DNA of 58,196 nt, the filler included, from Sphacelaria rigidula (lineage: Eukaryota): NCBI GenBank assembly GCA_964200075.2. It is 8 parts of 8 records of this genome, joined end to end, with 100 filler letters (N's around TTAATTAATTAA, not from the genome) between each part and the next. Parts side by side here need not be neighbours in the genome. Positions count along the whole stretch, not along the records: positions 14,577 to 21,763 come from CAXNAA020016065.1; 7 more parts are not named here. The stretch is one strand, 5' to 3'. Shown here piece by piece: positions 7,189-36,472 of the stretch. Both the position numbers and the translations under genes were made by a program. The stretch's first letter is position 1; the number at the start of each line of letters is the position of its first letter. The notes beneath the pieces were generated by a model. It was not told the DNA's origin. It did no database searches and saw nothing but the letters and a program-made list of their open reading frames with translations.

Positions 7189-7288
7189 NNNNNNNNNNNN
7201 NNNNNNNNNNNNNNNNNNNNNNNNNNNNNNNNTTAATTAATTAANNNNNNNNNNNNNNNNNNNNNNNNNNNNNNNNNNNNNNNNNNNN
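7189..7288. other. Artificial contig linker (44 N + TTAATTAATTAA + 44 N); same linker at 14477-14576, 21764-21863, 29051-29150, 36338-36437, 43625-43724, 50911-51010
   Basis: Identical 100-bp spacer with stops in all six frames. The separated pieces are 7188, 7188, 7187, 7187, 7187, 7187, 7186 and 7186 bp, i.e. contigs sorted by length. Confidence 0.98.
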
Positions 7289-8620: not shown

Positions 8621-9585
8621 ATGCACGCCGAAAAAAATGAAAAAAAAAAAAAACGCACCTCTCCCGGTTGACACATGACGTCCACGCCGCAATCGAACGA
8701 AAAAGTATCCTGTCGAGGCCACAAATTCCACAAGAATCGGTCCAGAACCATGAGAATTGTTGCCAGGAACCAAACTCCGAGTTGCAGATATCTGTAACGA
8801 TTGGCGGGGTCTCGCAGGGCGAATCGCAATCGCTTCACAGGTCCCGGCTGGTGGAGGACGAAATGAGCACACAAGAAGACAAACGCGCGGGGGACAAAAT
8901 ACACCATGCACACTGGTGAGTGGAGGGGGGGGGGGGGGGAACTTTGTTTTTATTTGCCGGGGGTTGGGGACCATGGACCTAGCATCCCCACAAAACGGGG
9001 NNNNNNNNNNCGGTGTGGACGTGGTGCCTGGGGGTGTTGGGGGGGGGGGGGGGGGGGGGGGGGGGTACTTTTGATTCTATATGCCGTGGTCATGAGACCA
9101 TGGACCTAGCATCCCCACAAAGCGGGGACCAAGCTTGCCGGGTTTTCGGCGCCGCACCATACAATCAATCGATCACCAAGCGCAAAGCACAGTGGCGTGT
9201 TCGGCGAGTCGCATCAAGGGTGAGCTGCATCCTGCAACTGATTGCTCGGCCCGACGCGTACCGATAATCCGTGCCTATAGATGACAGCCTCCCATGAGAT
9301 GCTTCATTTTCTGGTGTCGCCGCTTCCAGAGACAGCGGCGGGTTAACCACTGCCTCATGGGCGTCTCACCATTTCAACACTACGTGTCGCGATCATCCCC
9401 TTGGCGCGGAGTTGCGGCTATGCCCCCCGTACAAAATGATATGAATCGACCGTCGTCACGGTTACCGCGAAGCAACGCGAGCGGGTAAAAAAACGGTAAC
9501 TCGGTTGCCTAGCTTACGCAGTGAGTGGCGTGTTTCACAGCGTCGCTTTCAACTGTCGCCAATCCTCAAAGGGATGAGTGGGGAA

Positions 9586-10754: not shown

Positions 10755-13700
10755 CTACCAACACCTCACCGGGGGAAGCTCCTTCACCCCGTGCCATCGG
10801 CGGTCCCGCGCCTCCCCCAACTCTTCCAGCTCATTTTCATCTCCAACGACGGGAGTTACCTCTCCCGTTGTCCCCCCGTCGGCATGCCCATCACTCTGGC
10901 CGCCTCGGCGAACCCTGTCATCGGCGGGGGCAAGCATCATCGTCGCCCCGAAGTCGAAGGGATCATCTTGCGGTGAGTATGCACCGCCGCGCGCGCCACC
11001 GCCTGCATCATCTTCAGGGATGACGTCGGCAAGATCGCTCACGCTACGAGGCCCAACCGCCTCGCTGTCGGCCTCGTCCATTCCCGCGTCTGTACAAACG
11101 CGGTCGCGCCCGGCGATGGAGTCGTCGGACTCATCTTCGTATTTGCCGCCGATAACACCGTCAACGCCGCTGTCGCCACCGCCACCGCGCTCGTCGGTGG
11201 TGCCAACGACCGATTTATCTTCCTCCTCTCCCCATCTCCACGTCCTGTGGGCGTAAGCGGAATCCGTCAGGTTGTGAAATCCAGAAGCCTCCTCCACACT
11301 CACCTTCTGCCCCGCCACAGCGGCGGCTGCTGCCGACGGAGCCGGCAGAGACCCGTGATCACCCTCGCCCGCGCCGTTGGCTAAAGGAAGACGGGGGAGA
11401 GACGGCGGAACCTCCCACGATGACGACCCCCTGCTGATGCTATTGTGGATGAGTTTGTAGGGACTTGCGCTACTCCCAGCGTTACTGCCGCCATGACCGG
11501 GGATGGATGCAGCGGGGACGCCAGCGGGTCGCTGAGGGCGCGGCGGTTTGTCAGCCGCTGATGTTGCCACGCCTGCCCGACGGTGAGAGTTCGTCCGGAG
11601 GGTCGGTTGTTCCTCTTGGTCCTGCGGTGGTTGGGAGATAGCCGGACCACCACCCCGTGTATTGCTGAGATGTGCGTATGCAAGATTGGCGGTGACCTCA
11701 TGAGCGGGGATCGTGGGGTCGATCGCTGCGGTGGCGGTTGTGGAGGTACTCGCGGTGCTTTGAACGGTAACGATGCTGCTGCTGCTGAAGGCTGCCGAGA
11801 AGGGACGGGGGCCAGGCCGTGATTGCGGATTCGACGCGGTCTCAATCTCATCGGTCCCATCACAGCTGCCGTCGGCACCGTCATGCTTCTTTAGTCCGAA
11901 GATTTCGCCCGTGAGTTTGCTGAGCTTTTGAACGGTGCCGCTCTCGACGTCGATGATATCGCTATCGTGCTCGTCCGATTCCAGCCGTGGGTCGCCCCTG
12001 TCCCCATCACCTTCCTGTTCTCCCATACCGTTACCGTTGCTGTTGGTCTTGCTCTCAAACCACCTCGCCGGAGAGGAGAACGCCGCCATCAGACGTGCCA
12101 GTGGCTGGAAATTGTCATCTTCTCCTTCCCTCTCGTCCTTCACCGCGTCTTCCGTATGATCCGTGCTTCCCACGGCTGTTACCGTCCCATCTGTCGAATC
12201 TTCCGCTGCCTCCGCTGCCTCCGCGACCGGTGGAGGCGGCGGCGGCGGCGGCGGCGGCGATGGTGGCGGCGGTTGTGGCGGTAGTGTGGTGTGTGCACTC
12301 CCTTCTGCATCATGACCAGGCACTGCATCAATAGCACGGTCAAGGTGGCTACCGACAAAAACGTCTCGATCGCCCGAAGCAGGTCCCCGCTGTTCGATAC
12401 GACTCCCGCCAACGGCCTCGTTATTCACATCCACCGCTGCCACCGCTGCCGCTGCTGCCACATCTGTGGAAGATGCGGTCGATGGCACCGCCTCACTTGC
12501 GGACGCCTTATCCGCACATCTCCATGCGCTAGTTCGTGGGCTTGCCTCGGTGGTCGACACGTGACGTTCCTCTCGCGGGGTCGACGAACTCGAGTGCATC
12601 TGCCTCAACATCTGCGACGTGTCTACATTACTAATGGTCGGCCGACCGCCGGTGTATCTCTGCACCCCACCAGCGGGAGCACCGTCGCGTCGTGCCAGGA
12701 GCCACGGATAGTACTCACCACGGCCATCGTCCTCATCTCCCACCCCGCCGTCGGCAGAACCGCTTCCTGCTGGGGAAAAACCCACCAGCGACACCGCGCC
12801 GCTTGCACGCCGAACGCCGACCAAGTGCGAAGGGCTCTCAGCGATCGAGCCCACGTCGGAGCCCTGCCGGACGACCTTGCCACCATCTGATTCCGGAGGC
12901 AAACGCGTGCCCTCACTGCGTTCCTCGCTGCCCACACGGCTGCGGTAGAGGGTGTAGTTGTTGTCCAGTCGCGCGGCGGTGCTAGGACGCGCAGCGGCGC
13001 CGAGTGGTCCAGTTGTCTTGGGACGCCCGATGACGGCTACGTTCGACGAGGATCCGCCGCTGAACGGCCTGCGAGAGACGGGAGCACGCGAGAATGGTGA
13101 TGACGACGATAGCCGTGATCCAGTTCCCGGCGGGTTTCGATTCATGAGGTCCGGCGCTCCCGGGTAGCCCGAGAGTGTGCTGGCGGCGCTGCTGATCTCG
13201 CTCTGGCTTGTCATCGTGTAGTCGCTGCTGCTGCAGAACGAACTCCCGTCTTCGAGCGAACTCGTGTAGTCATCGTCATCATCGTCATCGCTCACCGCGC
13301 CGTCGGCAACGTGTGCGCCCCCTTTCGCCGGTGCGTTTTGATCCGAGTGGTCGTGCTCGACGGTGATTCCGACACCGCTTTCACGCCCGCGCCCACCATG
13401 AAGGTCCGTCGGTGTTTTACCTCCGGAGGACACGGTCCCACTGCCACCGCTCCCACCAGCGCCGCGAGAAGAAACCGGAACTGTCCCACCGTGAGCTGTA
13501 TCGACAACCCGCCCCACGTTCTCCATGTCTATTCCCGGGCTATTCCGATTGATGGCGTCAACGTCGATACGACCGTCGCCGCCGCCGCCGCCGCCAGCAG
13601 GCACAGCGAAACCCGCCTGCCCGGCTCCACCATCACTCCTTGCACTGCCGACATTGCTGGACTCGTCGCTGCCGCGCCGCCCGACGACCGCTCCTCTTCC

Positions 13701-14187
13701 CCCCTTTCCTCCGAAGATGGCCACCCGATCCGCCACCGACGGTGCCACAGTCGTAGTGGGCACAGAAAACAGCCGCTCTCGGTGAGTTGTGGGGGTGGTG
13801 CCCTCGGGACTGCTGTCCACGCTCATGACTCGGCGCCTTCTTCCAGTCGTGGCATTATCTTGACCAGGCATACGCATCCCTCGGCTGCTGCCGCCGCGGC
13901 CGCGGCCGACCCCCGGCATGGCGACAAGGGTACGGACTGCGGGTACGGGCGGTTTCATGGGCGATCCGGTGTGTCTCCTGGCCTTGAGCGCCATGATGGG
14001 CTGGGGCGGCGACCGCGTCATATCGCGCGCTATGTCGGGCGGAGATGGTGATCGCGCCGGGGATGGTGGGGGCCGCCGGGCTCCTTCGACCTCACCCCCG
14101 CCAGCCGCCGCCGTCGTACTGCGGGATGGGGCACGACTGCGGGCCTCGTTGGTTTCGGCGATCTCCGCGTGGTTCGCCATAACCCAT
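10755..14187 (-). CDS. Very large exon of an unknown, low-complexity (Gly/Ser/Ala/Asp/Pro-rich, likely disordered) protein; partial gene
   Basis: 1152-codon stop-free GC-rich ORF. Likely acceptor ...AACCGTAG at 14188-14189. Either stops at 10755 or is spliced at the GTGAGG donor after 10770. No recognisable domain. Confidence 0.8.
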
Positions 14188-15589
14188 CTACGGTTTGCGC
14201 GTTGCAGGTGCATTTCCGGTGCGAGGGGAGGGGGTGGGGGGATTCACGTGAGATGTCAACGTATGCTGCATCGCCCCGAAAACCATACAAGGTGAAAGTT
14301 TGCTCAAGTGAGTATCGAGGGCAGCACAGGTGTACCGAGAATGGAGACTATGAAGCCAAGGAAGGGGGCATTTTCGACGGTGGGCGGAAGACCCGGCGAT
14401 GCGTAAGATGAAGAACATACACCTGTTGTGCAAACTCAAGGAAAGAGGAGGGGAGTGGGGGGGGGGGCATACCCATNNNNNNNNNNNNNNNNNNNNNNNN
14501 NNNNNNNNNNNNNNNNNNNNTTAATTAATTAANNNNNNNNNNNNNNNNNNNNNNNNNNNNNNNNNNNNNNNNNNNNCACCCCTTTCGAGACGGAGCACCG
14601 CCTCTGGGGAGTGGGGGGGGGCGTACTCATTTGTTGCTTGCCTTAGTCATTTGACCATTGACCACGCACCCCTTTCGAGACTGGGGCGTGGGGGGTAGGG
14701 CGTTACGTCTTCCAGCCTGTAAGGCCCCTTGGTACAGTTATGGGGGTGAATGAGGACCGATTTTGGGTACTATATTTCGGGAAAGTGGACATCGACACCT
14801 GTCGACAGAAGAAGTACTGAAGCCATTTCTATAACCGACGTTCGTTGCTGTACATATATACACAGGGTCACAGCAGCAGGATTAAGAAGCTGCTGCTTTA
14901 GAGCCTGGCATCTCAGAAACGAAAATCGGCACAACGCCCGAACTTGGGGGTAGATCTTTGTGGTGAAACGTGAAATTTAATCAGAGACCCTTCAGTGGGG
15001 AATCGGCGCAATCTAGCGCCAGTGAAATGCGACCTTCACAGTGAATAATGTAGTGAAAATGATCGTGGTTGGCTCACACACTCGACTCACCTGTAGTGCA
15101 CGTACCACAGTAGTACATGAGTGAATAGTCGCGGCGGGACGAATAGAGCAGCAGCAGAGAAACGAAGCTGCAAGCAGACAAGCAGATGGCGAGTGGTACA
15201 TTGCCACCGCAGGGGGTCATCACGATAACCGTGCATCGGTGTACCCGCACCTCGGCTTTCCATGGCCGCGAGCGCTGGCGCCGATGCCAGCGGCAGTGGA
15301 CGCCATGCTGACGGGTGCAATCACTAAGTAGCTGTGCAGTAATACGCACTACGCTGTGGGTTGCTTCTTTCATCGGAGCACGAGGTCTGGCCCAGCCGGT
15401 CGAGCGGTCTATACCGGCGCTGCTTGTGTATCTTCACTCAGCCATGTTCGGTATCGCGCAAATCATGCGTGTGGGCAACACCTTGTTCGTTTGATGGGAG
15501 ACGAAACAATCAACACACCAGTGTGTAGACAGCACTGCGTCCCGATTGATCCTACTTTTGCAGAGACGGACACAACCGAGATTGTGTCC

Positions 15590-16110
15590 TGTAGGGTACG
15601 GTTTTCTGTACACCTGGGATTTTTCCCCAGGTATTTACCATACCTGACAGTTATGTAATCTCTGTATTACTTGCATACGCTTACTCGATAGTTCTGTGAG
15701 TTGTGTAAGCCTCCCGTACCGTCACCGGGGGGCACGGGCATGTTGTTGGCAAGATACCCAGTTGCGGATACTGTTTTTTGTGCAACCTCTATACCCTACC
15801 CGACAGTTTCTGTGAGTTCTGTTAGCCTCCCATACCCTTACCCGACAGTTCTGTGAGTTCTGTACAGAATTTTTACCCGTACCCGGAGCGTGGATATGCT
15901 CTTGAAGGGATACCCGATTGCCGGTACGATTTTTCTGTAAGTCCCCCGTACCGTAACCGACAAATCCTGTAAGTTCTGTAAGACTTCCAGACCGGTACCC
16001 GACAGTTTCGTGATTTCTGCAAGACTTTCATACCGGTACCCGGTATTTCTATAAGTTCTGTAAGTAATGTCGTACCCTACACAACATACCCGTACCCTAC
16101 AGAACACGAC
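15590..16110. repeat. Dispersed repeat built of GTACCCG / TTCTGTAAG subunits; second copy ~53600-53830
   Basis: ACCGGTACCCGACA...TTTCTG(C/T)AAGACTTT.ATACCG.TACCCGGTATTTCT...TACCCTACA is shared between contigs 3 and 8. Confidence 0.8.
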
Positions 16111-16989
16111 CTTGACACTCAAATGCAGCAACTCAGGCCATCTCAGTGGAGACCAAACTGTCTTGGCAAGGTCTGAAGCTACCACAAAACAGTGAAAGCT
16201 ACAGCGCATGAGAGAACACGTGGGTGTGTTTGCGCTACAGTACAGTGAAACAGGATGTGTCCCATGTTTGAGTTATTCGCCTGATTTGAAGCGGGTCCTC
16301 AGTGTTTGCCGGGTGCGGATCTTGAACGCTCGGCCATAATCGCGCTTGGCGCAAACAATTGAATTCGCTACAAGATCACCCCCATGTATGGGCGCTGTGC
16401 CAAAAAACGGGTGGGCATGTTGTGGTTGTTGTCTTCACAAATAAACCGTTGCGATATCCGCTCAGTACTCTGTACTGGGGCATCTGATGCAGACACCTTC
16501 CGTGCTCACAACCTAAATACCCCAAAAGAGAGTAAAATACAACTGAAAAATAAAAGCGGACCCAGAAAAATCCACGCAGACGTTACATGGCCGAAACTGC
16601 TTGCGTACCCTGAGCCTATTGGACGAAATAAACGAAATTTCGATGACGACTCCAACCTCTCCCGAATGATGGATCTCAAATTTTATTCCGCGCTGTTTCC
16701 TTATGGCTTTTGACAAGTACTACACACCATCGAATTTGTATTCCGATACCCGAAATTTACGGGTCGGGTGCAAAAACAAAATGTGGTTTCGGTGATTCGG
16801 TACCTATCAACAACAACACGGCATACAACGTATCTAGATGGTGTTACCGTTCTCTTCCGCCCTCACGGGATGGTTCACGATATAATTCAAGTGGACGATA
16901 TGAGAAGAACTTGACCTTGTATGTGCAATATGTGGTATGTGGGAATATGTGAAGATATATCCTCCAAACGGCCACTTCCGCAGCTCACG

Positions 16990-17360
16990 TTTACCTCAAT
17001 TTTTACAGGACGGGATGGCCGGTCACAAATTTTGAGGCGAGGGTTTGTGACGGGACTTCGGCACGGGACCATTTCCCCGTCGGCATTATGACGCGATGAA
17101 GCTAACGTATTCCTATGCTGTGTCTCCCCACACCTGTGATCATCTCCTTGGTGAACGTGTCGGAGCATCGCTGCACCAAAGTACTATCTCATCGTATCGA
17201 GGTTCAGGGACAGTTACATGCACATTCCCATAATCGTTCCGCCCTGTCTGTCCCCAGAATTCCCGGCCCGTCCCATCATTTTTGAGGCGACGAGTAGCCG
17301 TGCCCATCCCGTCCCGTCCCATCCCATGTTTATTTCAACGAAAAGAAAACGGTCCCGTCA
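16990..17360. mobile_element. MITE-like element with GACGGGA / TCCCGTC motifs in opposite orientation in its two halves
   Basis: GACGGGA repeats on the left (17009, 17049) and TCCCGTC/CCCGTCCC repeats on the right (17267-17358). Confidence 0.45.
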
Positions 17361-17642
17361 AGGAGTTCTGTGGCAAGACCTGCATTATATTGTCGTGAGT
17401 GCAACACAGATCATATTCACGACTTCTATCGAGTACCGTGAATCTGTCCATAGGTCCGGAACACACTCGCGTACGGGTGAAACATGGAGCGAAGGATACT
17501 TGAGTGCCCGTCCACAAAGAACGTGAAGAATAGTGCGCACGATACGTGCATCACACACACACAATGGTATGTGTTTTGAATCCGTTACGCCGCCGCCCTT
17601 TCCCCTCGGTATAAAAACAGGAAAAGGGAGAGTGACGATAAA

Positions 17643-18010
17643 ACCGGTCGCCCCGGTAGCTCAGATGGTAGCCTCGACTCCTTCTGACGGTCGGGTCGTG
17701 GGTTCGAATCTCGGTGCAGTCACACGATCTGGTATTTTATCTCACACAACGCCCGACAGTGGAAATCGAGGATGTCGTGAGTACACAAAGATCGACGTCA
17801 CGGTCGACGAGGGAAAGGGTGTGTCGAACCCCTCTCGCGATAAAAAAAAGACAAGCACCGCAGGAGGAAGGTGGAAAAGGATTTATTGAAAAAGAAAAAA
17901 GAGAAAACCTCCTGTGTTGGCAATCCTTCTGGGTGACCCCGGCTAATGCACCCACATATACCGAAAGGCGTAGACTGAAGTGCAAAATAGATGGAATGAT
18001 GACGCGCACA
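17643..18010 (+). mobile_element. tRNA-derived SINE family A, full length (~370 bp)
   Basis: A-box TAGCTCAGATGG at 17657-17668 and B-box GGTTCGAATC at 17701-17710. The tRNA-unrelated body is homologous to the copies at 22335-22677, 26806-26975 and 27714-28116. Confidence 0.85.
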
Positions 18011-18726
18011 CCCGATGAACATGTAGGCACCAGCACGTGGAAAAAGCGGGCGAAACAGTGTGCCGTCGAAGAGTACTTGTACACCCGAAGAGTACTTCTA
18101 CACCCAAAATACACATGTATTGCGCAGAGCATAGACGGCACGTGTGCACTACCTTTGTACAAGGGATCGAACCCTACTCCATCCGCCGCCCCCTCCCCGG
18201 CCAACACACGGATGAAAATATACAAAATTTTGTCGCCACGAGCACACTAGATAGTGGAGTGGAACGAGAATGCCACTATCGCGCGATAGCATCCTCCCCC
18301 GCCCTCCGAAAACCGGAAGATACAGCGAATGCATCATGATCCTTCTATCCTCCTGATAATAGAACAAATTGCCACTATGATCTGATTGTATTCAGCTTTG
18401 TCTTCCTTGCATCCCTTGCCCTTAGCGAACACGAGTCTGGTAGTTTGAGGGGTCGATGCATGTCTTTTCCCGCATGTACTTGGCTTGCTCTTCATATCAT
18501 CAAATGCTGGGTCAAAAGTCCTGCAACCCTTCGGCTTCTATGAAACTTCGACGTTACGCGTGTGGATGTCGAAGGGCGGATAACGTCGAGTGTATGATAC
18601 CGTGACGCGGCAGCAGCACACTGTGATCAGACCGATGGAGCTTCACCTACGCCGTCTTTCTCCTTCTGCGTGTTGTTCGCCAAACGCGACTGTGCCACTT
18701 GCTCAGGAGTGTTTCAAGGCGCTGCA

Positions 18727-18762
18727 ATGGCATCCCCGGCTGTCGTGGGCACTCGGGTCCAG
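18727..18762 (+). CDS. NLR-like gene, probable first coding exon (MASPAVVGTRVQ)
   Basis: ATG at 18727 and strong donor CAG/GTGAGC after 18762; phase 0 joins in frame to the next exon. Confidence 0.6.
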
Positions 18763-19180
18763 GTGAGCACGACTACTCGATGTGTTCGAAATCTTGTGAT
18801 GTATGCGACGAAGAAGCGTACCCGCGAGCGGTGTGTGCGGGAATGGCAAAGCACGGGTGAGGACACGGATATCATCGCTAGAGCGAACACGTGCTTCTTG
18901 GCGATGCTAGCGGAGAAATGTGGTGACACTTGTATGCAACCCCGGGAGAGCCGGAAATTCATGAAACATGTGGACAATGAACAACACCACAATATGAAAC
19001 GCCGGGACATGAAAATACTGTGCATACAGGCTATGTCTCGATTAGCGTTTCCTCGAGGCTCGGGCTTTGTGCATGAGTCCAGCGTTGAGCTACCGATTTT
19101 TATCGTCGAAACAGAGAGACGTCGGTTCGCACTTGACGTTCCGTGTGCTGCATCGGGGGTGGTGTTCCCTCATCCCTCAG

Positions 19181-20335
19181 GCACTGGAAACGACGCAGAG
19201 GGCCATCGAAGAGAATAGGCCGTGGTACCAAGCTGTCCTTCTTCGGGCGGAGACGGCAGAGGCTGCGGTCGGAGAGACTTCCACCGGGGTGGTAATTGAG
19301 GGGTTCCGTGTACTGGTGAATGCGGTCAACGTGGACGCTGTGAAGCCCGTCTGTGTTGTCCTTAGTGCTCTGTTCGAGGCTGCGAAAGGAGCCACCGCTG
19401 CCCGGGAGGAACTGCTAGATCTGCTGAGCTACTGCGTCTTGATCACGAGTATCGTACTGGACAATGCCCGTGCGCCGGAGCTTCCGGCGCACATCCAGAA
19501 GGCTTTGCAGCAGGTGACAGTGGAGATGACCAACATACATCACGCCGCTAGCCAGTTCGACGCCAAGGCGAGCCGTTCTTCGCCTTGGCGAAGGTTGCGT
19601 CTGCACGCCAGAGACAGAAGTAGGATCGAGACGCACAGGACGACACTCGAGGACATCTTGGCCACGGCGACGAGCGCTGCCGCGCTTTCTGCCGCTGCTG
19701 ACGCGAGCGCTATTCGCAGCATGCTGATACCCTTTTCCACACCTGGACGTATGGCGAGGGTTCCGCATGAAGCGCGGTTGCGACCTTCCAGCCACGTGGA
19801 GCGCCCGGCTCTGTTGTCCGAGATTGTTCCTAAACTCACGGCAGCAGATGCTAGCAGTCGTCCATACGTCCTTTTTGGTATGGGAGGAGCGGGCAAGACA
19901 ATGCTAGCATCCTCAGTCGTTCGCAACCCAGACGTCCTGGACCACTTCACGGGAGGGATCTTCTGGCTTCGGGTAGGACGAGCTGGTGAGACTCACCCTC
20001 TAGCGCTCCTCGAGGGGCTAGCCGCCAAGGTGATTGTATCTCCCACAGGTCCGCGCAATTTCAGCAGCGAGGACGAGGTGGTTCGGAGCCTGACGGCAGC
20101 CATTTTAGAAGATGGTCTACCTCGCCTGGTTGTGGTGGACGATGTGTGGGAGCGGGACATGGTGGATGTGCTGTCGCGCACCGGACTTCGACTCCTGGTG
20201 ACCACGCGTGTCCGTGCAGCAGTTGCCATGGACGGAGGGTGCACGGAGGTGGGAAGCATGAACCAGGTGGAGGCGCGACAGCTGCTGAAATCGAGGAGTG
20301 GCGCGGTGGCACTTCCGGAGAGGGAAGCTGACCAG
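19181..20335 (+). CDS. NLR-like STAND protein exon: N-terminal helical domain + NB-ARC nucleotide-binding domain
   Basis: Acceptor CCCTCAG/19181, donor CAG/GTACAC. P-loop GMGGAGKT, GGIFWL, Walker B LVVVDDVW, RNBS-B LLVTTR. Confidence 0.92.
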
Positions 20336-20638
20336 GTACACGTACGGGGGCCACTGGTTCAGCATGGAGCGTTTGAGAGGTGTCAGCCATGCTCATGTAT
20401 CGACCGCAAACATGGCTCTGTTCATAGCAATGTCTGGCGTGATTGCTGATTCCTTGGTAGACCCAAGGTTGTCCTGTTTCACAGAATAAACCACGTCGCT
20501 GTCAAAGTAAGACTTCAAGCGGCCTTGGCTTGTTACGCGGTACTATCATATAGTGCTGATTTATGCTGAACTCGCTCGATTGCTTCCCCGGCCTGTGTTG
20601 GTCTGTTGGTATCCTCCGTCGTGATGTATCCGTCGCAG

Positions 20639-20953
20639 GTTGCTGAGGAATGCGGGCGGTTACCGTTGGCCCTAGCTATTGCAGGGTCGCTCCCATGTGT
20701 GACCAACAGTCCAGACTCTGCTTTATCGTGGAATCAGCTGCACCAAGAGATCAAACAGAAGAAGGCAACGCCCCGAGGCCTGCAGATGAGCAGAGACATC
20801 GCCGACGACAAGTCCAAGACATCACTGTTTCCCGTTCTGTCCGTGAGCCTCGAAGAGTTAGGTGAAGAGGAGGAGGTCATGTTCCTGAGTCTGGTTGTGC
20901 TCGCCCGTGGTGTCTGGGCATCAACTGCTATGCTGGCCACGCTCTGGGAGAAG
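20639..20953 (+). CDS. NLR-like gene exon: ARC1/helical domain
   Basis: Acceptor GTCGCAG/20639, donor AAG/GTGTGG. VAEECGRLPLALAIAGS (GLPL motif) and LATLW; phase 0 at both ends. Confidence 0.92.
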
Positions 20954-21547
20954 GTGTGGTTCAATTGAAAGCGCCGTTGCATCGATTACGGACCTTTGTA
21001 CATACAGGATGCGCAGTGATGGTTGCGAGATGGTTGGAGCTTCACAGAGCGATGCGCTCCCCCTCCTGTTCATCAGGTATTTGAGTCGGTATGCCTGACG
21101 ATATAAACAGCTCGACTCATGTGTACTGTGAAGTAGCATATTCTCTTGAACGTTTTGCCAACATCGAGCGATCAGTTGTTTGCAGCTGCGAGATGAGAAG
21201 TACGTGAGAGGGCATTTTGGGTCCACGGTGATTCAAAAAAGGTTTGTTTTCATTGTGAGGCCGAAATTATTTGATTTCAGCATGCCGCTTTTAACCCCCG
21301 ATGCTTTGGGCTTACCGTGTATGTCCGTTGGGTGTTATGGCATGACCGCCATATACAGCGCGAACCCGCGTCCATGTAAACTCCCTGTATAGTAGACGAG
21401 TGTGGAAAGGAGGAATGGAGGCTTGCGCGACAAGGTTGTGAGGAGATCTTCCTGTCAGCTGGGGCCGTCGCGGCAGTCGCTTCGTGAAGCCCGTGGGATT
21501 GCCCTTGCTCAACATGGACCTGTGTTTTGAACTATATCGCGTCGCAG

Positions 21548-21763
21548 GATGTCGAAGGTGCAAAAAATGAAGCTGAGTTCCTAGCGCGTAATGCACTGAT
21601 GAATGAGGTGGAAGGCTCCTTCTACGTGCACGACCTGCTGTTGGACTTCATCAAACTGAGGTGTACAAGCACGGGCTTGCGCGGGTTGGTCGAGGATGCT
21701 GTGAATCGTCAAGCACGGTACTTGAGCCAACCGTCCGTGGTCCGAGAGTTTGGTGAGAACGGG
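21548..21763 (+). CDS. NLR-like gene exon: winged helix with MHD-equivalent motif; truncated by contig end
   Basis: Acceptor GTCGCAG/21548; FYVHDLLLDFI. Confidence 0.88.
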
Positions 21764-21863
21764 NNNNNNNNNNNNNNNNNNNNNNNNNNNNNNNNNNNNN
21801 NNNNNNNTTAATTAATTAANNNNNNNNNNNNNNNNNNNNNNNNNNNNNNNNNNNNNNNNNNNN

Positions 21864-21934
21864 GGAATCGAACCCCCCAACTCAACCATCAGAAGGTTAC
21901 GAGGTTACCAACTGAGCCACCGGGGCGACCGGCT
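21864..21934 (-). mobile_element. SINE family A head (cut by contig start)
   Basis: Near identical to 1-63; includes the B-box GGTTCGATTCC on the - strand. Confidence 0.8.
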
Positions 21935-22334
21935 CATGTAGAAGCAGATATACCGACCACGCAAAGTCCACCATGCTTCTCGGTTTTGTCGGTGTTTATT
22001 GATCAATTTCTTGCAACAAAATGAACAGAAAATAGTCCAAAGTCTGTATTGATCAATTTCTTGGAACGAAGTCGACAAGAAAAATAATCAGGGGTCTACA
22101 CGTTACACTCGACACTTTAACGTGACAACATTCGAAAAAACGGGAAAACGTAACTTCGGGTCATTCAGCGCTACGTGAGGTTTGACTTTTTGGATGGGAC
22201 AAATTTAAGCTAACGTGATGTAACGTGTGGTCCTTCGAATGAACCCGAACGTAAAGTTTTACTTTGCAAATGTGACGACGGAAACTCTGCTACTGGCCCT
22301 GCTCATACCTGTAGATGTGCAAAAAGCTGAAACT

Positions 22335-22677
22335 GTGTGTGTGTGTGTGTGTATGTGTGTGTGTTGTCGTCCCATCTATTCTGGGCACCGGTCTACACCT
22401 TTCGGTATAATAGGGCGCACCAGCCGCGGTTATTTGTTTTGAGTACCTCACCTTCCTTCTGCGGTGCTTGCTTTTTATTTTCTATCGCAAGAGGGGTTCA
22501 ACAGTCCCTTTCCCTCGTCGACCCTTCAGTCGAATTTCGTGTACCCACGACTTCATCGCTCTCCGCTGTTGGGCATGGTGTGAGAAAAAAATCCCAGATC
22601 GCTCCGAGAATTGAACCCAGAAAACCAATCGTCAGCAGGTTCCAAGGATACCAACTGAGCCACCGGGGCGATCGGCT
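22335..22677 (-). mobile_element. SINE family A, full length with (CA)n tail
   Basis: Homologous end to end to 17643-18010; the (GT)n run at 22335-22363 is the tail. Confidence 0.85.
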
Positions 22678-22787
22678 CCTCTGAAAGAACCGAGGAAAAA
22701 ATGGGGGATCTCGGGCATCGGCTATTCGACAGAGGTGAAACGCGATGGCCCGAGCTTCGACAGTGGAAAGCAGACACTTCGAACACG

Positions 22788-25353: not shown

Positions 25354-25700
25354 TCACCACCTGCCTCGAGCACCATCACTGGTCCTGGACCTCTTACAGG
25401 GACGGTCCTGAGTCTCCTCCTCCACCCACAGCTCACTGCCGACCACAGGATAACAAGTCAGCTCCATACGAGGGCTTACTAGCCCCGCCACGCTGCGCCC
25501 CCAGCTCCTGCCTGCGTCGCTACCCGATCTAGACTGCGCTTCCGGCGTGCTGCAGATGCCACGGTCCGAGTCCGACGGCGGGAACGGCCACGGCGCGCGG
25601 CAAACCGACGACGAAGATGACCCTGACGGAGAGACCAAGGCGAATAGAGGAGGATTTGTGAATATCTCCTCGTTCCGGAAACGAGATGGGGGTATGACAG

Positions 25701-25752
<52 letters not shown>

Positions 25753-26238
25753 ACTGCTGCTGCTGCTGCTGCTGCTGTCATTGATGCTGCTGATACTATC
25801 GACTTCCCCCGCCCTCCATCGCTTTCCCCCCACGTGTTGCCCTATCTTACTTGTGAGCGAAGCTACTTCCTCGTCTAGGTCACTGAAATCGCTCCCGCTG
25901 AGATAACCCGGCTCTGCTGCATTTTCCGTACAACAGCGGCTGTGCGCAGTGTCGGATGCTCTCACTTGCGATTGCGCAACTCTCCCAGCATGCCGCGGCA
26001 GCAGCCAGCCCGCGCACGCCGGCGTTCGGGCAGAATGCGTACTGGGGCATGTTTTCAACCCCCCAGCACCGCCACGGCGTAGGTGGGCCTGTCCCAGTTT
26101 CGTTGCTGTCGTTGTCGGCATTGCTGTCAACGTGCGCGAGTGCCGACGGGACATCGATGCGTATGACTTAGGAGATGCAATCTGGCTGGTGCTGCCTTTT
26201 GCGGCGTCCTGACGCGCGCGCCCTGATACTGTCTCCAT
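25354..26238 (-). CDS. Hypothetical Ser-rich protein (single ORF; poly-Ser from a (CAG)n-type repeat at ~25701-25778)
   Basis: 321-codon GC-rich open frame; first ATG at 26238 (METVSG...). Basic C-terminal stretch RPCKRSR. No domain recognised. Confidence 0.45.
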
Positions 26239-26805: not shown

Positions 26806-26870
<65 letters not shown>

Positions 26871-26975
26871 GTCGTCCCATCTATTCTGGACGCCAGTCTA
26901 CACCTTTTGGTATATGTGGGCGCACCGCGCGGGGTCCCACAGGAGGAAGGTCAGCACAGGAGCTTTTTTTTTATT
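26806..26975 (-). mobile_element. SINE family A, 5'-truncated copy with long (CA)n tail
   Basis: (GT)n at 26806-26869 followed by GTCGTCCCATCTATTCTGG...CACAGGAGGAAGGTCA, as in the other copies. Confidence 0.8.
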
Positions 26976-27713
26976 TGGTACCCCTCCTTCAAAGGGTTTC
27001 GATAATTTCGTGATGGGGGGTCTAGGCAGCTAAGCGGCTCTCAAATGGTTACCTAGGGTTGCGATCGGCGCCCCTTGTCTTTTTATCCGCGATTGTATCA
27101 ACCATGCGTTCGCAGTACAACAGTATCCTGACTCCTCAGACCTCCTCATGTGCTTGCTCTTGCCGTTGTTGTTGAAATGAATCATATCTTTGGTTGAAAA
27201 CATTGCGTTCTCTGCCTCTCTGGGACGGAGGTGGTTTGTAGATGTATTCAGAGCTGCATGATGGGGCTGACGCCACGAATCTTCGTACGGCCGACTGTAA
27301 CTGCCCCAGAAATTTTGCGCCACACACGGACGGGAGTGCTCCGCCACGCGTGTTGTGTTTAAAGCTTTTTCGCCGCTACGCGCGTGTGTAGCTGAGTTTT
27401 CCGCTTCAATCGTACTCTAGCTCCCGAGATTTTGGTGAATACAGGAGTTAGTCACGTTGGTCGCGGCGGTCGCCTTGATGGGCTTGTTGCCCTGCGTCTC
27501 CCAGAGCAACCTAGAGTGAAACCACGGCTGGCTTCTGTCGAGCATTTGGCTTTCTCGGTTTTCCGGTCAGCTTTCACGCGATAGACTGGATCTGTGATTT
27601 AAATTTCTGATGCTCTCTCCAGTAGTTTGCCGGCTAAATCTCGCTGTGAGTCAAACACGTAATATTTATTACTTTAATGATTAGCGGGTATAGACGACGT
27701 GCACATGGTGTGT

Positions 27714-27714
27714 G

Positions 27715-27767
<53 letters not shown>

Positions 27768-28116
27768 GTCGTCCCATCTATTCTGGGCGCCGGTTTACAC
27801 ATTTCGGTATATGTGGGAGCACCAGCCTGGGTCACACATGAGGAAGGTCAATACAGGAGCATTTTCTTTGTCGTTTTAGTACCCCACCTTCCTTCTGTTG
27901 TGCTCGCCTTCATTTTTTATCGCAAGAGGGGTTTAGCACAGCAGTCCCTTTCCCTCTTCAACCGTCAAGTCGAATTTTGTTCACCCATGACATATTCGCT
28001 CTCCACTGTTGCGCATTGTGTGACAAAAAAATCCCAGATCGCTCCGAGAATTGAACCCACGACCCACCCGTAGAAGGGTTTCGAGGTTACCAACTGAGCC
28101 ACCGGAGTGACCGGCT
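27714..28116 (-). mobile_element. SINE family A, full length, with 11-bp target-site duplication
   Basis: ACATGGTGTGT at 27703-27713 and 28119-28129; A/B boxes; (CA)n tail. Confidence 0.88.
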
Positions 28117-30520
28117 TTACATGGTGTGTATTAATCAACGACGGTGTCATACGATGTGCTCAAAAACAAGTCCATTTGCAATGCGTTACCTTGTGATAAT
28201 ATTTCTTCGCTCGGAATATACCTCCGATTCTTGTTGGCTGCCATCTCTACTGGCAACACCGACGCTCATTCCTACCGAAAAAGCACGTCCAACAACACAA
28301 ATCTTGAACCAGGCTTTCAGGTGACACGACACTGTGGGATGATCGTATTGCCCAGCTACTAAACACAAGCCAACATCGCTTCCGGTCGACAACGAAAGCT
28401 GTTTCTCAAGGTGGAATTAAAATTCTCCTTCAAAAGATGACAAAACAGTCCGGGTGTTGGGGGGGGAAATGAGAGGTACGATGTGCGACATAAACATTGC
28501 TCGAGTTAACTCGAAATAAAAGGGTGACGACGGATGGATGTGGGTCGACGATTTTAATACATGCAGAATGGCGGAGGGAACATATCGCTCATCTCGGATA
28601 GCCAATTGGATGAAATGGGTGCACAGATTACCTGGAGCCAATAACAGGACAAGTCAAGTATACAGTACAGTATACATGAACCCTTGGACTGCGAGGCTAG
28701 TCGATCTGGAATATTTTTACTCTCCTGAAGTGAATTTGATGCCGAATCAGAAGAAGACCTACACTACTCGCCGTGTAAGAGTTAGGCGATAAAGACGTGC
28801 TGGACGGTAAATATCATATGCAAAAGGTGATGCAGCAGGACCTGCTCCTCACGTATCAGATACTTTCTACTATAGCCCCTCCCAAAAACCAGCCCGAAAG
28901 TGTCACGAAAAAAATGGCCACAAAGCGCCTAATGTTTGGGTTCAGGCTGCATGAAGCCTCATGTTGGCGACATTGGCTAGGACGAACCCAAACGTGGGAA
29001 TTCGCAGCTGCTCGTTGTGCTCGGCTTTTCCCATTTCGATTTACGTGAAGNNNNNNNNNNNNNNNNNNNNNNNNNNNNNNNNNNNNNNNNNNNNTTAATT
29101 AATTAANNNNNNNNNNNNNNNNNNNNNNNNNNNNNNNNNNNNNNNNNNNNGGAGGCACGGTGTTGGGAGGGTGGGGGTTGCTAGTCGGTGCTCCCCCCCC
29201 CCCCCCCCCCCCCCCCCGAAGAAGCATGGGACCACCAGGTGGCGGCGCCGGGAAGATGTGTTACAATGTGGAACTTTGGGTCCTAATTTCTGGTTACAGT
29301 TTTGACAGTTTATCGCGTTCGGGCGTGACACTCGTATCGCTCTGATTATACCACCGTTTATGGGGGACAAATCTGCACTTGTACAAATCTAATATTCTCA
29401 GCATGTCTGCAAGCGATTGACTTTTCGAACCCCAGTCTTTCGGGCAATGTTTGTCGACTAGCTGTGATAAAACCGCATCAATTCTCTGATTCTCTGGACA
29501 TCGACCCCACGATCGATCACCCTTACCCTAAAATCGAGACACTCCCGAGTGTGCGTGTACAAAAAAGTTTCGGTTCTGTTTTGTCTCGGTTACGTTTCAT
29601 CGTGTGGATAATGACCAGGCTGGATCCCTGGCTGACCAGTTAAAAGTGCGACAATCAATCAAATCAAGTCGACTCAACAAAAAGACTGATACTACCGTAA
29701 ACGCGCTGTCGGGGCTACACCGCGTTGAAAAGTCCAGGTGTCATGTGAAGTATAACCAATGAGCTCTGTCACTGCTTCTGGTCTTGCGCGTTCCAGGAGC
29801 GTGCAAAGAGGCGAAACGAAGCCAGATGTTGAAAACAGAAACTTGTTTTCTTCCTTTTGGCATAACACTGGCACTCGCTAGAGACTGAATTATCAGGTGA
29901 TTGCCCAGCGGATATTGCCTCCCTCGTTATTGACAGAGTTATCCACATGTCGATGTCCGGTCGTAGAAGCTGAGCCAGCATGGAAGAAGATTTGGGCTTG
30001 AAAGTGAATTTCCAACCTCAGCTTCGAAAGTTACGCGTTGAAATTTGGTACGGAGCATCGGAGGGAAAAAATAAGAAATGATTTGTGCATGCTGACGGTT
30101 TTTCTTTCACGAGTTGAAGGCAAAAACAAGATCGTTGTTCACAGAAACGTCCTCGACTCATAAAAAAAAATAAAAAAAACGTACAGAAAATATTCTACTC
30201 AATGTTTCACTGGGATATTACTCCATACCAAATTCCAAAGCACAACTCTCAGAACTGAAGTGGGAAATCTACTGAGGTCATATCACCACTTGGTAGAGTG
30301 GAATTTCGTCGGAAACTCATTGTTTTTTAGATAACGCTGACCCTAAACCTAACAAACGAAAACCCTTGAGCAAGCGGGGGGTGCAAACTGTTTCCTAGGC
30401 AAACTGTGGCGCTGGTGAACCAGGCACCGATTGACACGAACACGTTTTCTGTGCACGCTAGAATCACTTGGAACTGTCAAATCCATTGGAAAACCGAATT
30501 TCGGAGTTCATACTGCCGCT

Positions 30521-36009: not shown

Positions 36010-36472
36010 CTGCAACCCGACAACAGCAAGGGTAATCCGAGAAGACATGAAGAGACCGAGAGATGGAGGGGAGAGGACGTGGGCAGGGGCAGAAGTAACT
36101 ATAAATAGGAGAACCATGTCAGGATTGGAGAGATGAGAACCTCGGAAGTTTTCACGGTTAGGACGAATCATCACGACTACGAATCACCAAACCCACGATT
36201 TCTTCGGCCTGATTTTGCCCTCAGAGGAGAAAAAAGTTGACCGCTGGTCAAAGGGGTATCCACGCAACTTTTGCACCATTCCATGTATCTGGGCTGCGCG
36301 TACCTGGGTTGCAACGCTGAAAACAAAGCCTAGGGATNNNNNNNNNNNNNNNNNNNNNNNNNNNNNNNNNNNNNNNNNNNNTTAATTAATTAANNNNNNN
36401 NNNNNNNNNNNNNNNNNNNNNNNNNNNNNNNNNNNNNTTTTTTTGTTTCCTTTTTTGTGGGGGGAGAGTTAT

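What the first reader, a model, noticed from the sequence alone, without database searches (positions are those of the whole stretch)
18727..21763. Brown-algal NLR with a candidate MLKL/RPW8/HeLo-like cell-death domain fused to an intact NB-ARC
Seen: a four-exon gene with all NB-ARC motifs (GMGGAGKT, DDVW, TTR, GRLPLAL, VHD). Before it lie ~170 aa of amphipathic helices: VKPVCVVLSALFEAAKGATAAREELLDLLSYCVLITSIV ... ALQQVTVEMTNIHHAASQF ... WRRLRLHARDRSRIETHRTTLEDIL. Known: MLKL N-terminal, RPW8 and fungal HeLo-like four-helix bundles are membrane-disrupting executors in NLR-type immunity. Brown algal NB-ARC genes are mostly described by their C-terminal repeats. Inference: the helix pattern (P-started first helix, short turn with acidic residues, basic/aromatic motif before the last helix) resembles the MLKL-type bundle, so this may be a resistosome-like receptor in a stramenopile. 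The sensor domain lies beyond the contig end.
Basis: partly seen in the sequence, partly recalled or inferred. Interest (0 to 1): 0.72.

Follow-up and report, generated by a model that had tools for sequence, protein, structure and literature searches.

The report
Brown-algal NLR with MLKL-like helical head
This is a real, intact but contig-truncated immune-receptor-like gene of the brown alga Sphacelaria rigidula whose N-terminal domain is predicted to be a four-helix bundle most like the cell-killing domain of MLKL, but the resemblance is weak and brown-algal receptors of this type are already known.

Summary
Window 18727-21763 (+) carries a four-exon, phase-0, GT-AG gene of 574 codons with no stop. 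It runs off a 7187-bp contig of Sphacelaria rigidula. Its first 422 residues match the deposited protein exactly. All five quoted NB-ARC motifs are present, and Pfam NB-ARC scores E=2e-12. A 79%-identical paralog continues into TPR repeats, so this is a brown-algal NB-ARC-TPR gene, a family known since 2012.

The N-terminal ~200 residues form a family with 42 cluster representatives. Most sit on NB-ARC, and at least five on TIR. AlphaFold2 gives a confident four-helix bundle for residues 61-202 (pLDDT 88.6).

Three leads point to MLKL_N, none significant alone:
- The solved MLKL N-terminal domain has the highest TM-scores among listed Foldseek hits (0.58/0.54), but E=1.4.
- Three of 38 relatives give sub-threshold Pfam MLKL_N hits in one register.
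- MLKL_N is the only named family at 0.9 or above in two ESM Atlas searches.

No RPW8, HeLo or Rx_N signal was found. The bundle lies behind a conserved ~65-residue cap, not at the N-terminus.

Killing activity is inferred. Novelty is modest.

The parts
18727..18762 (+). Exon 1. It holds the start codon plus 11 more codons and is followed by a GT donor at 18763.
   Evidence: Sequence read. Splice flanks. Identical to the start of deposited protein P0051.
18763..19180 (+). Intron 1 (418 nt, GT...AG, phase 0).
   Evidence: The junction is confirmed by P0051 and by paralog P0005.
19181..20335 (+). Exon 2 (385 codons). It encodes the N-terminal helical domain, a linker and the first half of the NB-ARC.
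   Evidence: Translation (P0001). Pfam NB-ARC on residues 228-370 of the exon.
19181..19324 (+). N-terminal cap (with exon 1: protein residues 1-60). It is predicted as three short helices at lower confidence. It carries the family's conserved P-W-Y-E-x-L-G-L-type motif at 19217-19243.
   Evidence: AF2 pLDDT about 65 for this part. The Trp is present in every aligned member. Motif coordinates.
19325..19750 (+). Four-helix-bundle core of the N-domain (protein residues 61-202). This is the part that resembles MLKL_N.
   Evidence: AF2 core model: pLDDT 88.6, pTM 0.77, helices 3-22, 27-47, 55-84 and 95-134. Foldseek. Register of the Pfam MLKL_N hits of relatives.
19751..19861 (+). Conserved Pro/Ala-rich linker between the bundle and the NB-ARC.
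   Evidence: Conserved columns P188, A192, V194, P195 and P202 of the exon-2 numbering. Predicted to lack helix.
19862..20335 (+). NB-ARC, first part. Holds the P-loop at 19877-19900, Walker B at 20126-20149 and TTR at 20201-20209.
20336..20638 (+). Intron 2 (GT...AG, phase 0).
   Evidence: The junction matches P0051.
20639..20953 (+). Exon 3 (105 codons). NB-ARC ARC1 part, with the GLPL-type motif at 20654-20674.
   Evidence: tblastn with paralog P0005 gives 87% identity.
20954..21547 (+). Intron 3 (GT...AG, phase 0).
   Evidence: The junction is supported by colinear alignment to P0005.
21548..21763 (+). Exon 4 (72 codons, open at the 3' end). ARC2 part, with the MHD-type motif VHD at 21626-21634. 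It is cut by the contig end.
   Evidence: P0005 continues from the matching point into TPR repeats.

Best explanation
The locus is a functional-looking member of the brown-algal NB-ARC-TPR family of candidate immune receptors (STAND/NLR-like) in Sphacelaria rigidula. The contig end cuts it off before its TPR sensor.

Its N-terminal domain is a lineage-wide module made of two parts. The first is a ~65-residue cap. The second is a four-helix bundle that is most probably a distant relative, or at least a structural equivalent, of the MLKL_N / HeLo-like / CC-R class of executioner bundles.

Proposed mechanism:
1. The TPR repeats bind a ligand.
2. This releases the NB-ARC switch (ADP to ATP).
3. 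The receptor oligomerises.
4. The clustered bundles are released from the cap and from the NB-ARC.
5. The bundles act on a membrane, as a pore or ion leak, causing cell death or a calcium signal.

Shown here: the gene, the intact NB-ARC, the existence and modularity of the domain family, and the predicted bundle. Inferred: homology to MLKL_N (my odds about 0.65-0.7), and every step of activation and membrane action.
For: **Gene and splicing:**. Deposited protein P0051 is an exact prefix of the model.

**NB-ARC**
- Pfam E=2e-12, above the cut-off.
- The nearest solved sequences are Apaf-1 (E=1.1e-8), NRC1 and NRC4.

**TPR sensor in relatives**
- P0005 (79% identical, 1226 aa) and P0006 carry TPR families.
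- P0015, P0028 and P0043 carry NB-ARC plus TPR.

**N-domain family**
- 42 cluster representatives at E<=1e-3 among 1.84 billion.
- NB-ARC is present in 27 of the 38 members of alignment A1.

**Fold:** all-helical; the core model has pLDDT 88.6 and pTM 0.77 with four long helices.

**Foldseek against the PDB**
- Core model: among the 47 rows listed, MLKL N-terminal domain 2msv has the highest TM-score by both normalisations (0.58/0.54, rmsd 3.6 over 117 columns). MLKL 6d74 scores 0.52/0.48 and NRG1.1 CC-R 7l7v scores 0.41/0.50.
- Full-domain model: 2msv has the highest target-normalised TM (0.51) and the lowest rmsd (4.0).

**Pfam MLKL_N (PF22215)**
- It is the only family outside the NTPase, TPR and TIR groups that three of the 38 members match.
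- The three are P0020 (E=0.0071), P0038 (E=0.092) and P0011 (E=0.1).
- The hits of P0020 and P0011 map to the window protein with the same offset, 50-55.
- The three lie in both halves of a quick tree of the domain.
- P0020 is tied to the window domain by BLASTP E=8e-21.

**ESM Atlas:** MLKL_N-bearing clusters are the only named family at 0.9 or above. They are 6 of 30 hits for the whole domain and 7 of 30 for the core, and they include an oomycete cluster.

**Background:** HeLo-like and Goodbye-like bundles on fungal NLRs, and CC domains on plant NLRs, are described as relatives of the MLKL bundle (passages of PMC10197012).
Against: **No statistically significant link**
- Foldseek found 0 PDB matches at E<=0.001 with either model. 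By E-value, the best hits are designed helical repeat proteins; MLKL ranks 29th, 31st and 38th. Four-helix bundles match one another easily.
- The window's own N-domain has no Pfam hit to MLKL_N at E<=10; its best hit is TetR_C_13 at E=0.25.
- 35 of the 38 members give no MLKL_N hit, and the three hits (12.6-16.3 bits) are far under the 27-bit cut-off.
- A profile of the domain found no MLKL, NLR-CC or HeLo chain among PDB sequences at E<=10. Single-sequence searches found none either.
- The first Atlas call warns that only 5 of the 10 best named hits agree, which it rates as 'family is probably wrong'.

**Architecture**
- The helix equivalent to MLKL helix 1 starts at about residue 67, behind a conserved cap. 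In MLKL, HeLo and CC domains the acting helix is N-terminal.
- The cap helices are not hydrophobic. The most hydrophobic 19-residue windows only touch 1.6 on the Kyte-Doolittle scale, and 13 of 38 members reach that value.

**Missing data**
- No expression data could be checked.
- The TPR part is not on the contig.
- No functional test exists.
Confidence: 0.5

Rival explanations
1. The N-domain is a homotypic adaptor rather than an executioner. Like a CARD or death domain, it would let the oligomerised NB-ARC-TPR receptor recruit other proteins that carry the same domain. The best candidates are the small N-domain-TIR proteins, whose layout resembles that of MyD88. The output would then be TIR enzymatic signalling, not membrane damage by the bundle.
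For: - The same domain occurs on two kinds of protein: NB-ARC receptors and, in at least five relatives, a TIR domain with no NTPase (P0046, P0047, P0052, P0054, P0057).
- The TIR-linked copy is 39% identical over 185 residues to the copy on an NB-ARC protein (E=2e-34).
- The six TIR-linked domains, counting the truncated P0044, group together inside the family tree (SH-aLRT 92, quick tree).
- Their TIR part matches bacterial defence TIR models (PDC-S66 at E=9.6e-19, and ThsB).
- A shared domain on receptor and effector is the logic of CARD and PYD signalling (established knowledge).
Against: - The predicted fold is a four-helix bundle, not a six-helix death fold.
- The weak family signals all point to MLKL_N.
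- It is not known whether S. rigidula itself encodes a TIR-linked copy.
- The TIR-linked copies belong to the other half of the tree from the window's domain.
Confidence: 0.22
2. The N-domain is a lineage-specific helical domain with a regulatory or scaffolding role, for example holding the NB-ARC inactive or docking it to a cellular structure. Its likeness to MLKL would be the generic likeness of four-helix bundles.
For: - No significant match to any known family or structure.
- Designed helical repeats, talin bundles, IncA and membrane four-helix proteins score as well as or better than MLKL by E-value.
- The cap in front of the bundle has no equivalent in MLKL.
Against: - Three independent kinds of weak evidence pick the same family out of about 24,700 Pfam models and 350,000 PDB chains.
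- Two Pfam hits from different subfamilies share one register.
- The position N-terminal to an NB-ARC is where fungi and plants place their bundle effectors (PMC10197012 passages).
Confidence: 0.2
3. The locus is a dead or dying paralog (pseudogene or fragment) in a fast-turnover family, so no function needs explaining.
For: - High birth-and-death rates and many pseudogenes are reported for Ectocarpus NB-ARC-TPR loci (abstract and passages of PMC3341825).
- The contig is short and ends inside the gene.
- Repeats lie 0.7-1.1 kb upstream.
- Expression could not be checked.
Against: - 574 codons over four exons without a stop or frameshift, and canonical splice sites.
- Every NB-ARC motif is intact.
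- Only one 2-residue indel against a 79%-identical paralog.
Confidence: 0.08

Closest known systems
[quoted passage not shown] 2012, PMC3341825)
   Same: - NB-ARC of the Apaf-1/R-protein type in a brown alga.
- Close paralogs carry C-terminal TPR arrays.
- Multi-exon, phase-0 gene structure.
   Different: - The TPR part of this copy is off the contig.
- The passages I read of that paper describe the NB-ARC and TPR parts and say nothing about a domain in front of the NB-ARC.
- A later paper on the family (Teng et al. 2023, Plant J 114:246) is not held here. From recall only, it predicted a four-helix-bundle N-terminal domain for some members.
MLKL N-terminal executioner domain (Pfam PF22215; PDB 2msv, 6d74)
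   Same: - Predicted four-helix bundle of similar size.
- Best TM-scores of the listed PDB matches (0.58/0.54).
- Sub-threshold Pfam hits in three relatives, all colinear.
- Nearest named family in the ESM Atlas.
   Different: - Fused to an NB-ARC NTPase, not to a pseudokinase.
- About 65 extra residues precede the bundle.
- Scores lie below every significance threshold.
- No evidence of lipid binding or killing.
Fungal NLRs with HeLo-like or Goodbye-like N-terminal domains on NB-ARC-TPR or NACHT scaffolds
   Same: - Same overall layout: helical bundle, then NB-ARC, then TPR.
- The Atlas's best unnamed look-alikes are short Basidiomycota proteins (scores 0.91-0.95).
- Those fungal domains are described as relatives of the MLKL bundle (PMC10197012 passages).
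   Different: - No family member hits the Pfam HeLo, HeLo-like, SesA or Goodbye models in the scans made.
- No N-terminal helix with transmembrane propensity.
Plant helper NLRs with RPW8-like CC-R domains (NRG1, ADR1)
   Same: - Bundle-NB-ARC order.
- NRG1.1 CC-R (7l7v) appears among the listed Foldseek matches (TM 0.41/0.50).
- The NB-ARC of exon 2 weakly matches ADR1 and an RPW8-domain NLR by sequence (E 0.04-0.08).
   Different: - TPR instead of LRR.
- No Pfam RPW8 hit in any member.
- E=1.3 in Foldseek.
Apaf-1
   Same: Nearest solved NB-ARC by sequence: E=1.1e-8 for the window, and 1.3e-13 for relative P0020.
   Different: Apaf-1 has a CARD in front and WD40 repeats behind. Here there is a four-helix bundle in front and, in paralogs, TPR repeats behind.

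Membership tests
NB-ARC (Pfam PF00931, STAND AP-ATPase) | Score above the Pfam gathering cut-off | tested here: met
   47.4 bits against a cut-off of 23.5, E=2e-12, on exon 2 alone.
NB-ARC (Pfam PF00931, STAND AP-ATPase) | P-loop, Walker B, RNBS-B (TTR), GLPL and MHD motifs, all intact and in order | tested here: met
   Each motif occurs once, in order, at 19877, 20126, 20201, 20654 and 21626. The motif names and their meaning are from established knowledge.
Brown-algal NB-ARC-TPR family | C-terminal TPR array fused to the NB-ARC | not testable with these tools
   The contig ends 43 codons after the MHD motif. The 79%-identical paralog P0005 continues into TPRs. No TPR exon was found elsewhere in the window.
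Brown-algal NB-ARC-TPR family | Brown-algal origin and close kinship to family members | tested here: met
   100% identical to a deposited Sphacelaria rigidula protein. Relatives occur in S. rigidula and Pylaiella littoralis.
MLKL_N (Pfam PF22215) | Score above the Pfam gathering cut-off (27 bits) | tested here: not met
   The window domain has no hit at E<=10. The best relatives score 16.3, 12.7 and 12.6 bits.
MLKL_N (Pfam PF22215) | Four-helix-bundle fold that superposes on the solved MLKL N-terminal domain | tested here: inconclusive
   Confident four-helix model. TM 0.58/0.54 to 2msv, the highest of the listed rows, but E=1.4 and no PDB match at E<=0.001.
MLKL_N / HeLo / plant CC executioner bundles | The acting first helix lies at the very N-terminus (with transmembrane propensity in HeLo/HELL; MADA-type motif in plant CC domains) | tested here: not met
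   - The helix equivalent to MLKL helix 1 starts near residue 67.
- The preceding cap helices have low hydrophobicity.
- The N-terminus does not resemble the MADA consensus as I recall it.
- The feature itself is taken from PMC10197012 passages.
MLKL_N / HeLo / plant CC executioner bundles | Membrane permeabilisation or cell death caused by the isolated domain | not testable with these tools
   This needs an experiment.
RPW8 (PF05659), HeLo (PF14479), HeLo-like, Rx_N (PF18052) | Any Pfam match of the domain or of its relatives | tested here: not met
   None of these families appears for any protein. HMMER filters drop most matches above E of about 0.1. The accession numbers are recalled.

The most novel reading that the evidence does not exclude
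The N-domain is a true stramenopile branch of the MLKL / HeLo / RPW8 four-helix-bundle executioners. If so, NLR-driven membrane attack exists in a fourth eukaryotic supergroup, with two features not described elsewhere.

1. A conserved ~65-residue cap, carrying an invariant Trp motif, would have to be moved aside to free the bundle. That would be a new way of gating.
2. The module is swappable. Brown algae also fuse it to stand-alone TIR domains, so bundle-bundle contacts could couple NB-ARC-TPR receptors to TIR enzymes in one death-signalling network.
Probability: 0.27. Interest if true: 0.65.

Novelty: new member of a known kind. Interest (0 to 1): 0.4.

Why it matters
Brown algae became multicellular independently of plants, animals and fungi, and their immunity is almost unstudied at the molecular level.

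If their NB-ARC-TPR receptors carry an MLKL-like killing head, then the pairing of a nucleotide-switch oligomeriser with a four-helix membrane executioner is either very ancient or repeatedly reinvented. It also becomes directly testable in a stramenopile.

On the practical side, the domain family gives a handle for annotating the unexplained N-termini of these receptors across the new brown-algal genomes. It also draws attention to the small bundle-TIR proteins as possible partners.

The gain is limited for two reasons. The receptor family is already known, and the four-helix-bundle idea has probably already been raised for it.

Tried and rejected
**Self-association test.** Complex prediction with two copies of the bundle core gave no verdict (score 0.02). 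It is neither evidence for nor against.

**Searches that found nothing for the N-domain**
- Sequence searches against PDB chains: single sequence, family profile, and relatives P0020 and P0038. Apart from chance-level helical proteins, they found only NB-ARC matches.
- PADLOC and NCBIfam: no hit for the N-domain.

**Weak leads set aside**
- TetR_C_13 hits (P0004 E=0.25; its 78%-identical paralog P0059 E=0.013). I treat them as generic helical matches, because they occur only in near-copies.
- Atlas hits to TNFAIP8 (0.86-0.87) and DUF7708 (0.85). Both are under the 0.9 line and I did not pursue them.

**Alternatives considered and rejected**
- Death-fold (CARD/DD) identity: rejected on the predicted four-helix topology.
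- MADA-type N-terminal motif: rejected by eye, and exon 1 is not conserved in the family.
- A classical transmembrane helix: not supported, since the maximum Kyte-Doolittle 19-residue mean is 1.6.

**Searches for longer relatives.** These returned only 3 and 2 proteins, because long repeat proteins crowd the candidate list.

**The tRNA-like repeat near the gene.** It is not called a tRNA by ARAGORN or by Rfam.

**Literature**
- Teng et al. 2023 could not be opened.
- Seven full-text searches found no held paper that links the N-terminus of brown-algal NB-ARC proteins to MLKL or to a four-helix bundle.

the metagenome and viral contig collections and the bioRxiv supplements were closed, so Table S3 of the Phaeoexplorer preprint was not seen.
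Full report
**What is at the coordinates**

The window is not one stretch of genome. It is eight pieces of about 7.2 kb joined by N44-TTAATTAATTAA-N44 linkers. The finding lies in the third piece, 14577-21763 (7187 nt).

Reading the + strand gives four exons: 18727-18762, 19181-20335, 20639-20953 and 21548-21763. All introns are GT...AG and phase 0. Joined, the exons make 574 codons with no stop.

A profile search returned a deposited protein, P0051. It is 422 aa, named 'unnamed protein product, partial [Sphacelaria rigidula]', and lies on a contig of 7187 nt. It is an exact prefix of my model. The organism is therefore the brown alga Sphacelaria rigidula. The first two junctions are independently annotated, and the gene truly ends at a contig end.

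The third junction is supported by the paralog P0005, which aligns at 79% identity over 573 columns with one 2-residue gap. tblastn with P0005 finds no other related exon in the window.

**The NB-ARC**

Exon 2 alone scores E=2e-12 against Pfam NB-ARC, 47.4 bits against a cut-off of 23.5. The nearest solved sequences are Apaf-1 (E=1.1e-8), NRC1 and NRC4.

| Motif | Window coordinates |
|---|---|
| P-loop | 19877-19900 |
| Walker B | 20126-20149 |
| TTR | 20201-20209 |
| GLPL-type | 20654-20674 |
| VHD | 21626-21634 |

P0005 (1226 aa) continues from the point where the contig stops into a long TPR array. P0006, P0015, P0028 and P0043 also combine NB-ARC and/or TPR families.

This is the NB-ARC-TPR architecture described for Ectocarpus in 2012: 24 genes, a TPR sensor and exon shuffling (abstract and passages of PMC3341825). 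The Phaeoexplorer preprint lists it among families that expanded in brown algae (passage).

**The N-terminal domain is a family of its own**

The 203 residues at the start of exon 2 (P0004) have no Pfam hit of note; the best is TetR_C_13 at E=0.25. They also have no match among PDB sequences.

An exhaustive HMMER scan of 1.84 billion cluster representatives found 42 relatives at E<=1e-3, 17 of them at E<=1e-10.
- Of 38 members aligned (A1), 27 carry NB-ARC directly after the domain.
- The remaining members are short N-terminal pieces (many representatives look like single-exon reads), apart from two that carry a TIR (next paragraph).
- The domain has a well-conserved skeleton:
  - an invariant Trp in a P-W-Y-E-x-L-G-L-type motif near the start;
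  - a Pro (97%) that opens the first core helix;
  - a Leu (95%) and a Y-C-V motif in the second helix;
  - a D...H...L pattern in the last helix;
  - a Pro/Ala-rich linker before the NTPase.

At least five relatives (P0046, P0047, P0052, P0054, P0057) carry the same domain in front of a TIR domain, with no NTPase. One of them is 39% identical over 185 residues to the N-domain of an NB-ARC protein (E=2e-34). The domain is therefore a mobile module.

A quick maximum-likelihood tree was built (45 rows, SH-aLRT support only, midpoint root for drawing; the careful search was not finished).
- It splits the family into two halves, each with support 95.
- The window's copy sits in a nine-member clade (support 100) with S. 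rigidula paralogs and a Pylaiella littoralis protein.
- The six TIR-linked copies (counting the truncated P0044) group together (support 92) in the other half.

**Fold**

AlphaFold2 with the family alignment predicts an all-helical domain: mean pLDDT 81.2, but only about 65 for the first 50 residues.

Modelled alone, the core (protein residues 61-202, window 19325-19750) reaches pLDDT 88.6 and pTM 0.77. It has four long helices (3-22, 27-47, 55-84, 95-134) and a short one. That is a four-helix bundle whose last helix runs on towards the NB-ARC.

**Is it MLKL-like?**

Four tests were possible. None is decisive alone, and I report them with their weaknesses.

*(1) Foldseek against 350,542 PDB chains.*
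- No match at E<=0.001 with either model. By E-value, designed helical repeat proteins lead.
- Among the 47 rows listed for the core, the solved MLKL N-terminal domain 2msv has the highest TM-score on both normalisations (0.58/0.54, rmsd 3.6, 117 columns).
- MLKL 6d74 follows at 0.52/0.48. The RPW8-like CC-R domain of NRG1.1 (7l7v) is listed at 0.41/0.50.
- Their E-values are 1.2-1.4.

*(2) Pfam.*
- MLKL_N (PF22215) is matched by 3 of the 38 A1 members. It is the only recurrent family that is not an NTPase, TPR or TIR model.
- The three are P0020 (E=0.0071, 16.3 bits), P0038 (E=0.092) and P0011 (E=0.1). All are far below the 27-bit cut-off.
- The hits of P0020 and P0011 cover different parts of the profile (10-83 and 43-107). 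Both map onto the window protein with the same offset of 50-55 residues.
- The three proteins come from both halves of the tree.
- P0020 is linked to the window domain at E=8e-21.
- No member matches RPW8, HeLo, HeLo-like, SesA, Goodbye or Rx_N.

*(3) ESM Atlas.*
- For the whole domain, the best hits are unnamed Basidiomycota clusters (0.94-0.95). The only named family at 0.9 or above is MLKL_N, with 6 of 30 hits; the best such cluster carries it on 36% of its members.
- The tool warns that only 5 of the 10 best named hits agree.
- For the core alone, MLKL_N is again the only named family at 0.9 or above, with 7 of 30 hits. These include an oomycete cluster with MLKL_N on 22% of members, and 7 of the 10 best named hits agree.

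*(4) Profile against PDB sequences.* Nothing relevant was found.

Taken together, I put the odds that the core belongs to the MLKL_N / HeLo-like / CC-R class of bundles at about two in three. By Pfam's own criterion it is not a member of MLKL_N.

**How it differs from the known executioner bundles**

The helix that corresponds to MLKL helix 1 begins at about residue 67. In MLKL, in fungal HeLo/HELL domains and in plant CC domains, the acting helix is at the extreme N-terminus. In HeLo/HELL it has transmembrane propensity (PMC10197012 passages).

Here a conserved cap of about 65 residues comes first. Its helices are not hydrophobic. The first two core helices are the most hydrophobic part: the best 19-residue Kyte-Doolittle means are 1.6, and 13 of 38 members reach 1.6. 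That is borderline at best.

**Most likely mechanism**

By analogy with Apaf-1, plant resistosomes, fungal NLRs and MLKL (established knowledge), the steps would be as follows.
1. A ligand is read by the TPR array.
2. The NB-ARC exchanges nucleotide and oligomerises.
3. The N-terminal bundles are brought together and released.
4. The bundles act on a membrane.

Only the parts list is shown here. Every step of activation is inferred.

The main rival is that the domain is a homotypic adaptor that recruits bundle-TIR proteins. The TIR of those proteins resembles bacterial defence TIRs (PDC-S66 at E=9.6e-19, and ThsB). By my reading it keeps a Glu in the W-x-x-x-E-L position typical of NAD-cleaving TIRs; the meaning of that motif is recalled, not tested.

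The two readings are not exclusive. A self-association prediction gave no verdict.

**Novelty**

- The gene is already in a public annotation, unnamed.
- Its family has been known since 2012.
- The passages I read of the 2012 paper do not describe a domain before the NB-ARC.
- Seven full-text searches found no held paper linking it to MLKL or to a four-helix bundle.
- The key follow-up paper (Teng et al. 2023, Plant J 114:246) is not held; I saw it only as a citation. I recall that its abstract mentions a predicted four-helix-bundle N-terminal effector domain in some brown-algal NB-ARC-TPR proteins. If that recollection is right, the central idea is in print.
- What may be new:
  - the sequence-level pointer to MLKL_N;
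  - the conserved cap;
  - the bundle-TIR fusions.

**Verdict**

- It is a new member of a known kind, of moderate interest (0.4).

**Unchecked**

- Expression.
- The 3' end of the gene.
- The closed contig collections.
- The preprint's supplements.

Noticed in passing
window 7189-7288, 14477-14576, 21764-21863, 29051-29150, 36338-36437, 43625-43724, 50911-51010: The window is eight separate pieces of about 7.2 kb, joined by N44-TTAATTAATTAA-N44 linkers. Neighbouring pieces are therefore not genomic neighbours. Two further 10-N gaps lie at 9001-9010 and 39854-39863.
   Followed up: yes
relatives P0046, P0047, P0052, P0054, P0057 (and the truncated P0044); not in the window: The same N-terminal helical domain is fused directly to a TIR domain, with no NTPase, in at least five small proteins from unnamed sources. 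The TIR matches bacterial anti-phage TIR models. They may be partners or alternative outputs of the NB-ARC-TPR receptors.
   Followed up: partly
window 17639-17717 (+), 21865-21944, 22608-22687, 28047-28126; flanking repeat 17735-18011 vs 22355-22590, 26860-26976, 27757-27864: A tRNA-like repeat of about 80 nt, with D-loop- and T-loop-like boxes, has an adjoining unit of about 110-280 nt. It lies 0.7-1.1 kb upstream of the gene and recurs on the next contig piece. It looks like a tRNA-derived SINE. ARAGORN and Rfam call no tRNA there.
   Followed up: partly
window 54543-56270 (-): A 576-codon open frame holds nine EsV-1-7 cysteine-rich repeats (Pfam PF19114, E=1.1e-140). This is a brown-algal/phaeovirus-type repeat family.
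   Followed up: partly
window 10755-14243 (-): A 1162-codon open frame with low-complexity, Gly/Ser/Ala/Pro-rich content sits in the most GC-rich part of the window (58-64% GC). It has no Pfam match.
   Followed up: partly
relative P0007 (eukprot), not in the window: A 1282-aa gene model ends with a copy of the N-domain that begins at its own Met. That copy follows R3H, 3'-5' exonuclease and HRDC domains. This is most likely two neighbouring genes merged by the annotation, not a real fusion.
   Followed up: no
window 15651-16064; 25683-25805: Tandem 41/157-nt repeats lie upstream on the gene's contig. On the next piece, a (TGC)n microsatellite encodes a poly-Ser run inside a 341-codon open frame with no Pfam match.
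   Followed up: no
alignment A1 (relatives), matching window position 20335/20336: Many unnamed representatives stop being alignable right after the residues that end exon 2 here, and then continue as unrelated sequence. It looks as if an intron at the same phase-0 position had been read through. This suggests a conserved intron position across the family.
   Followed up: no
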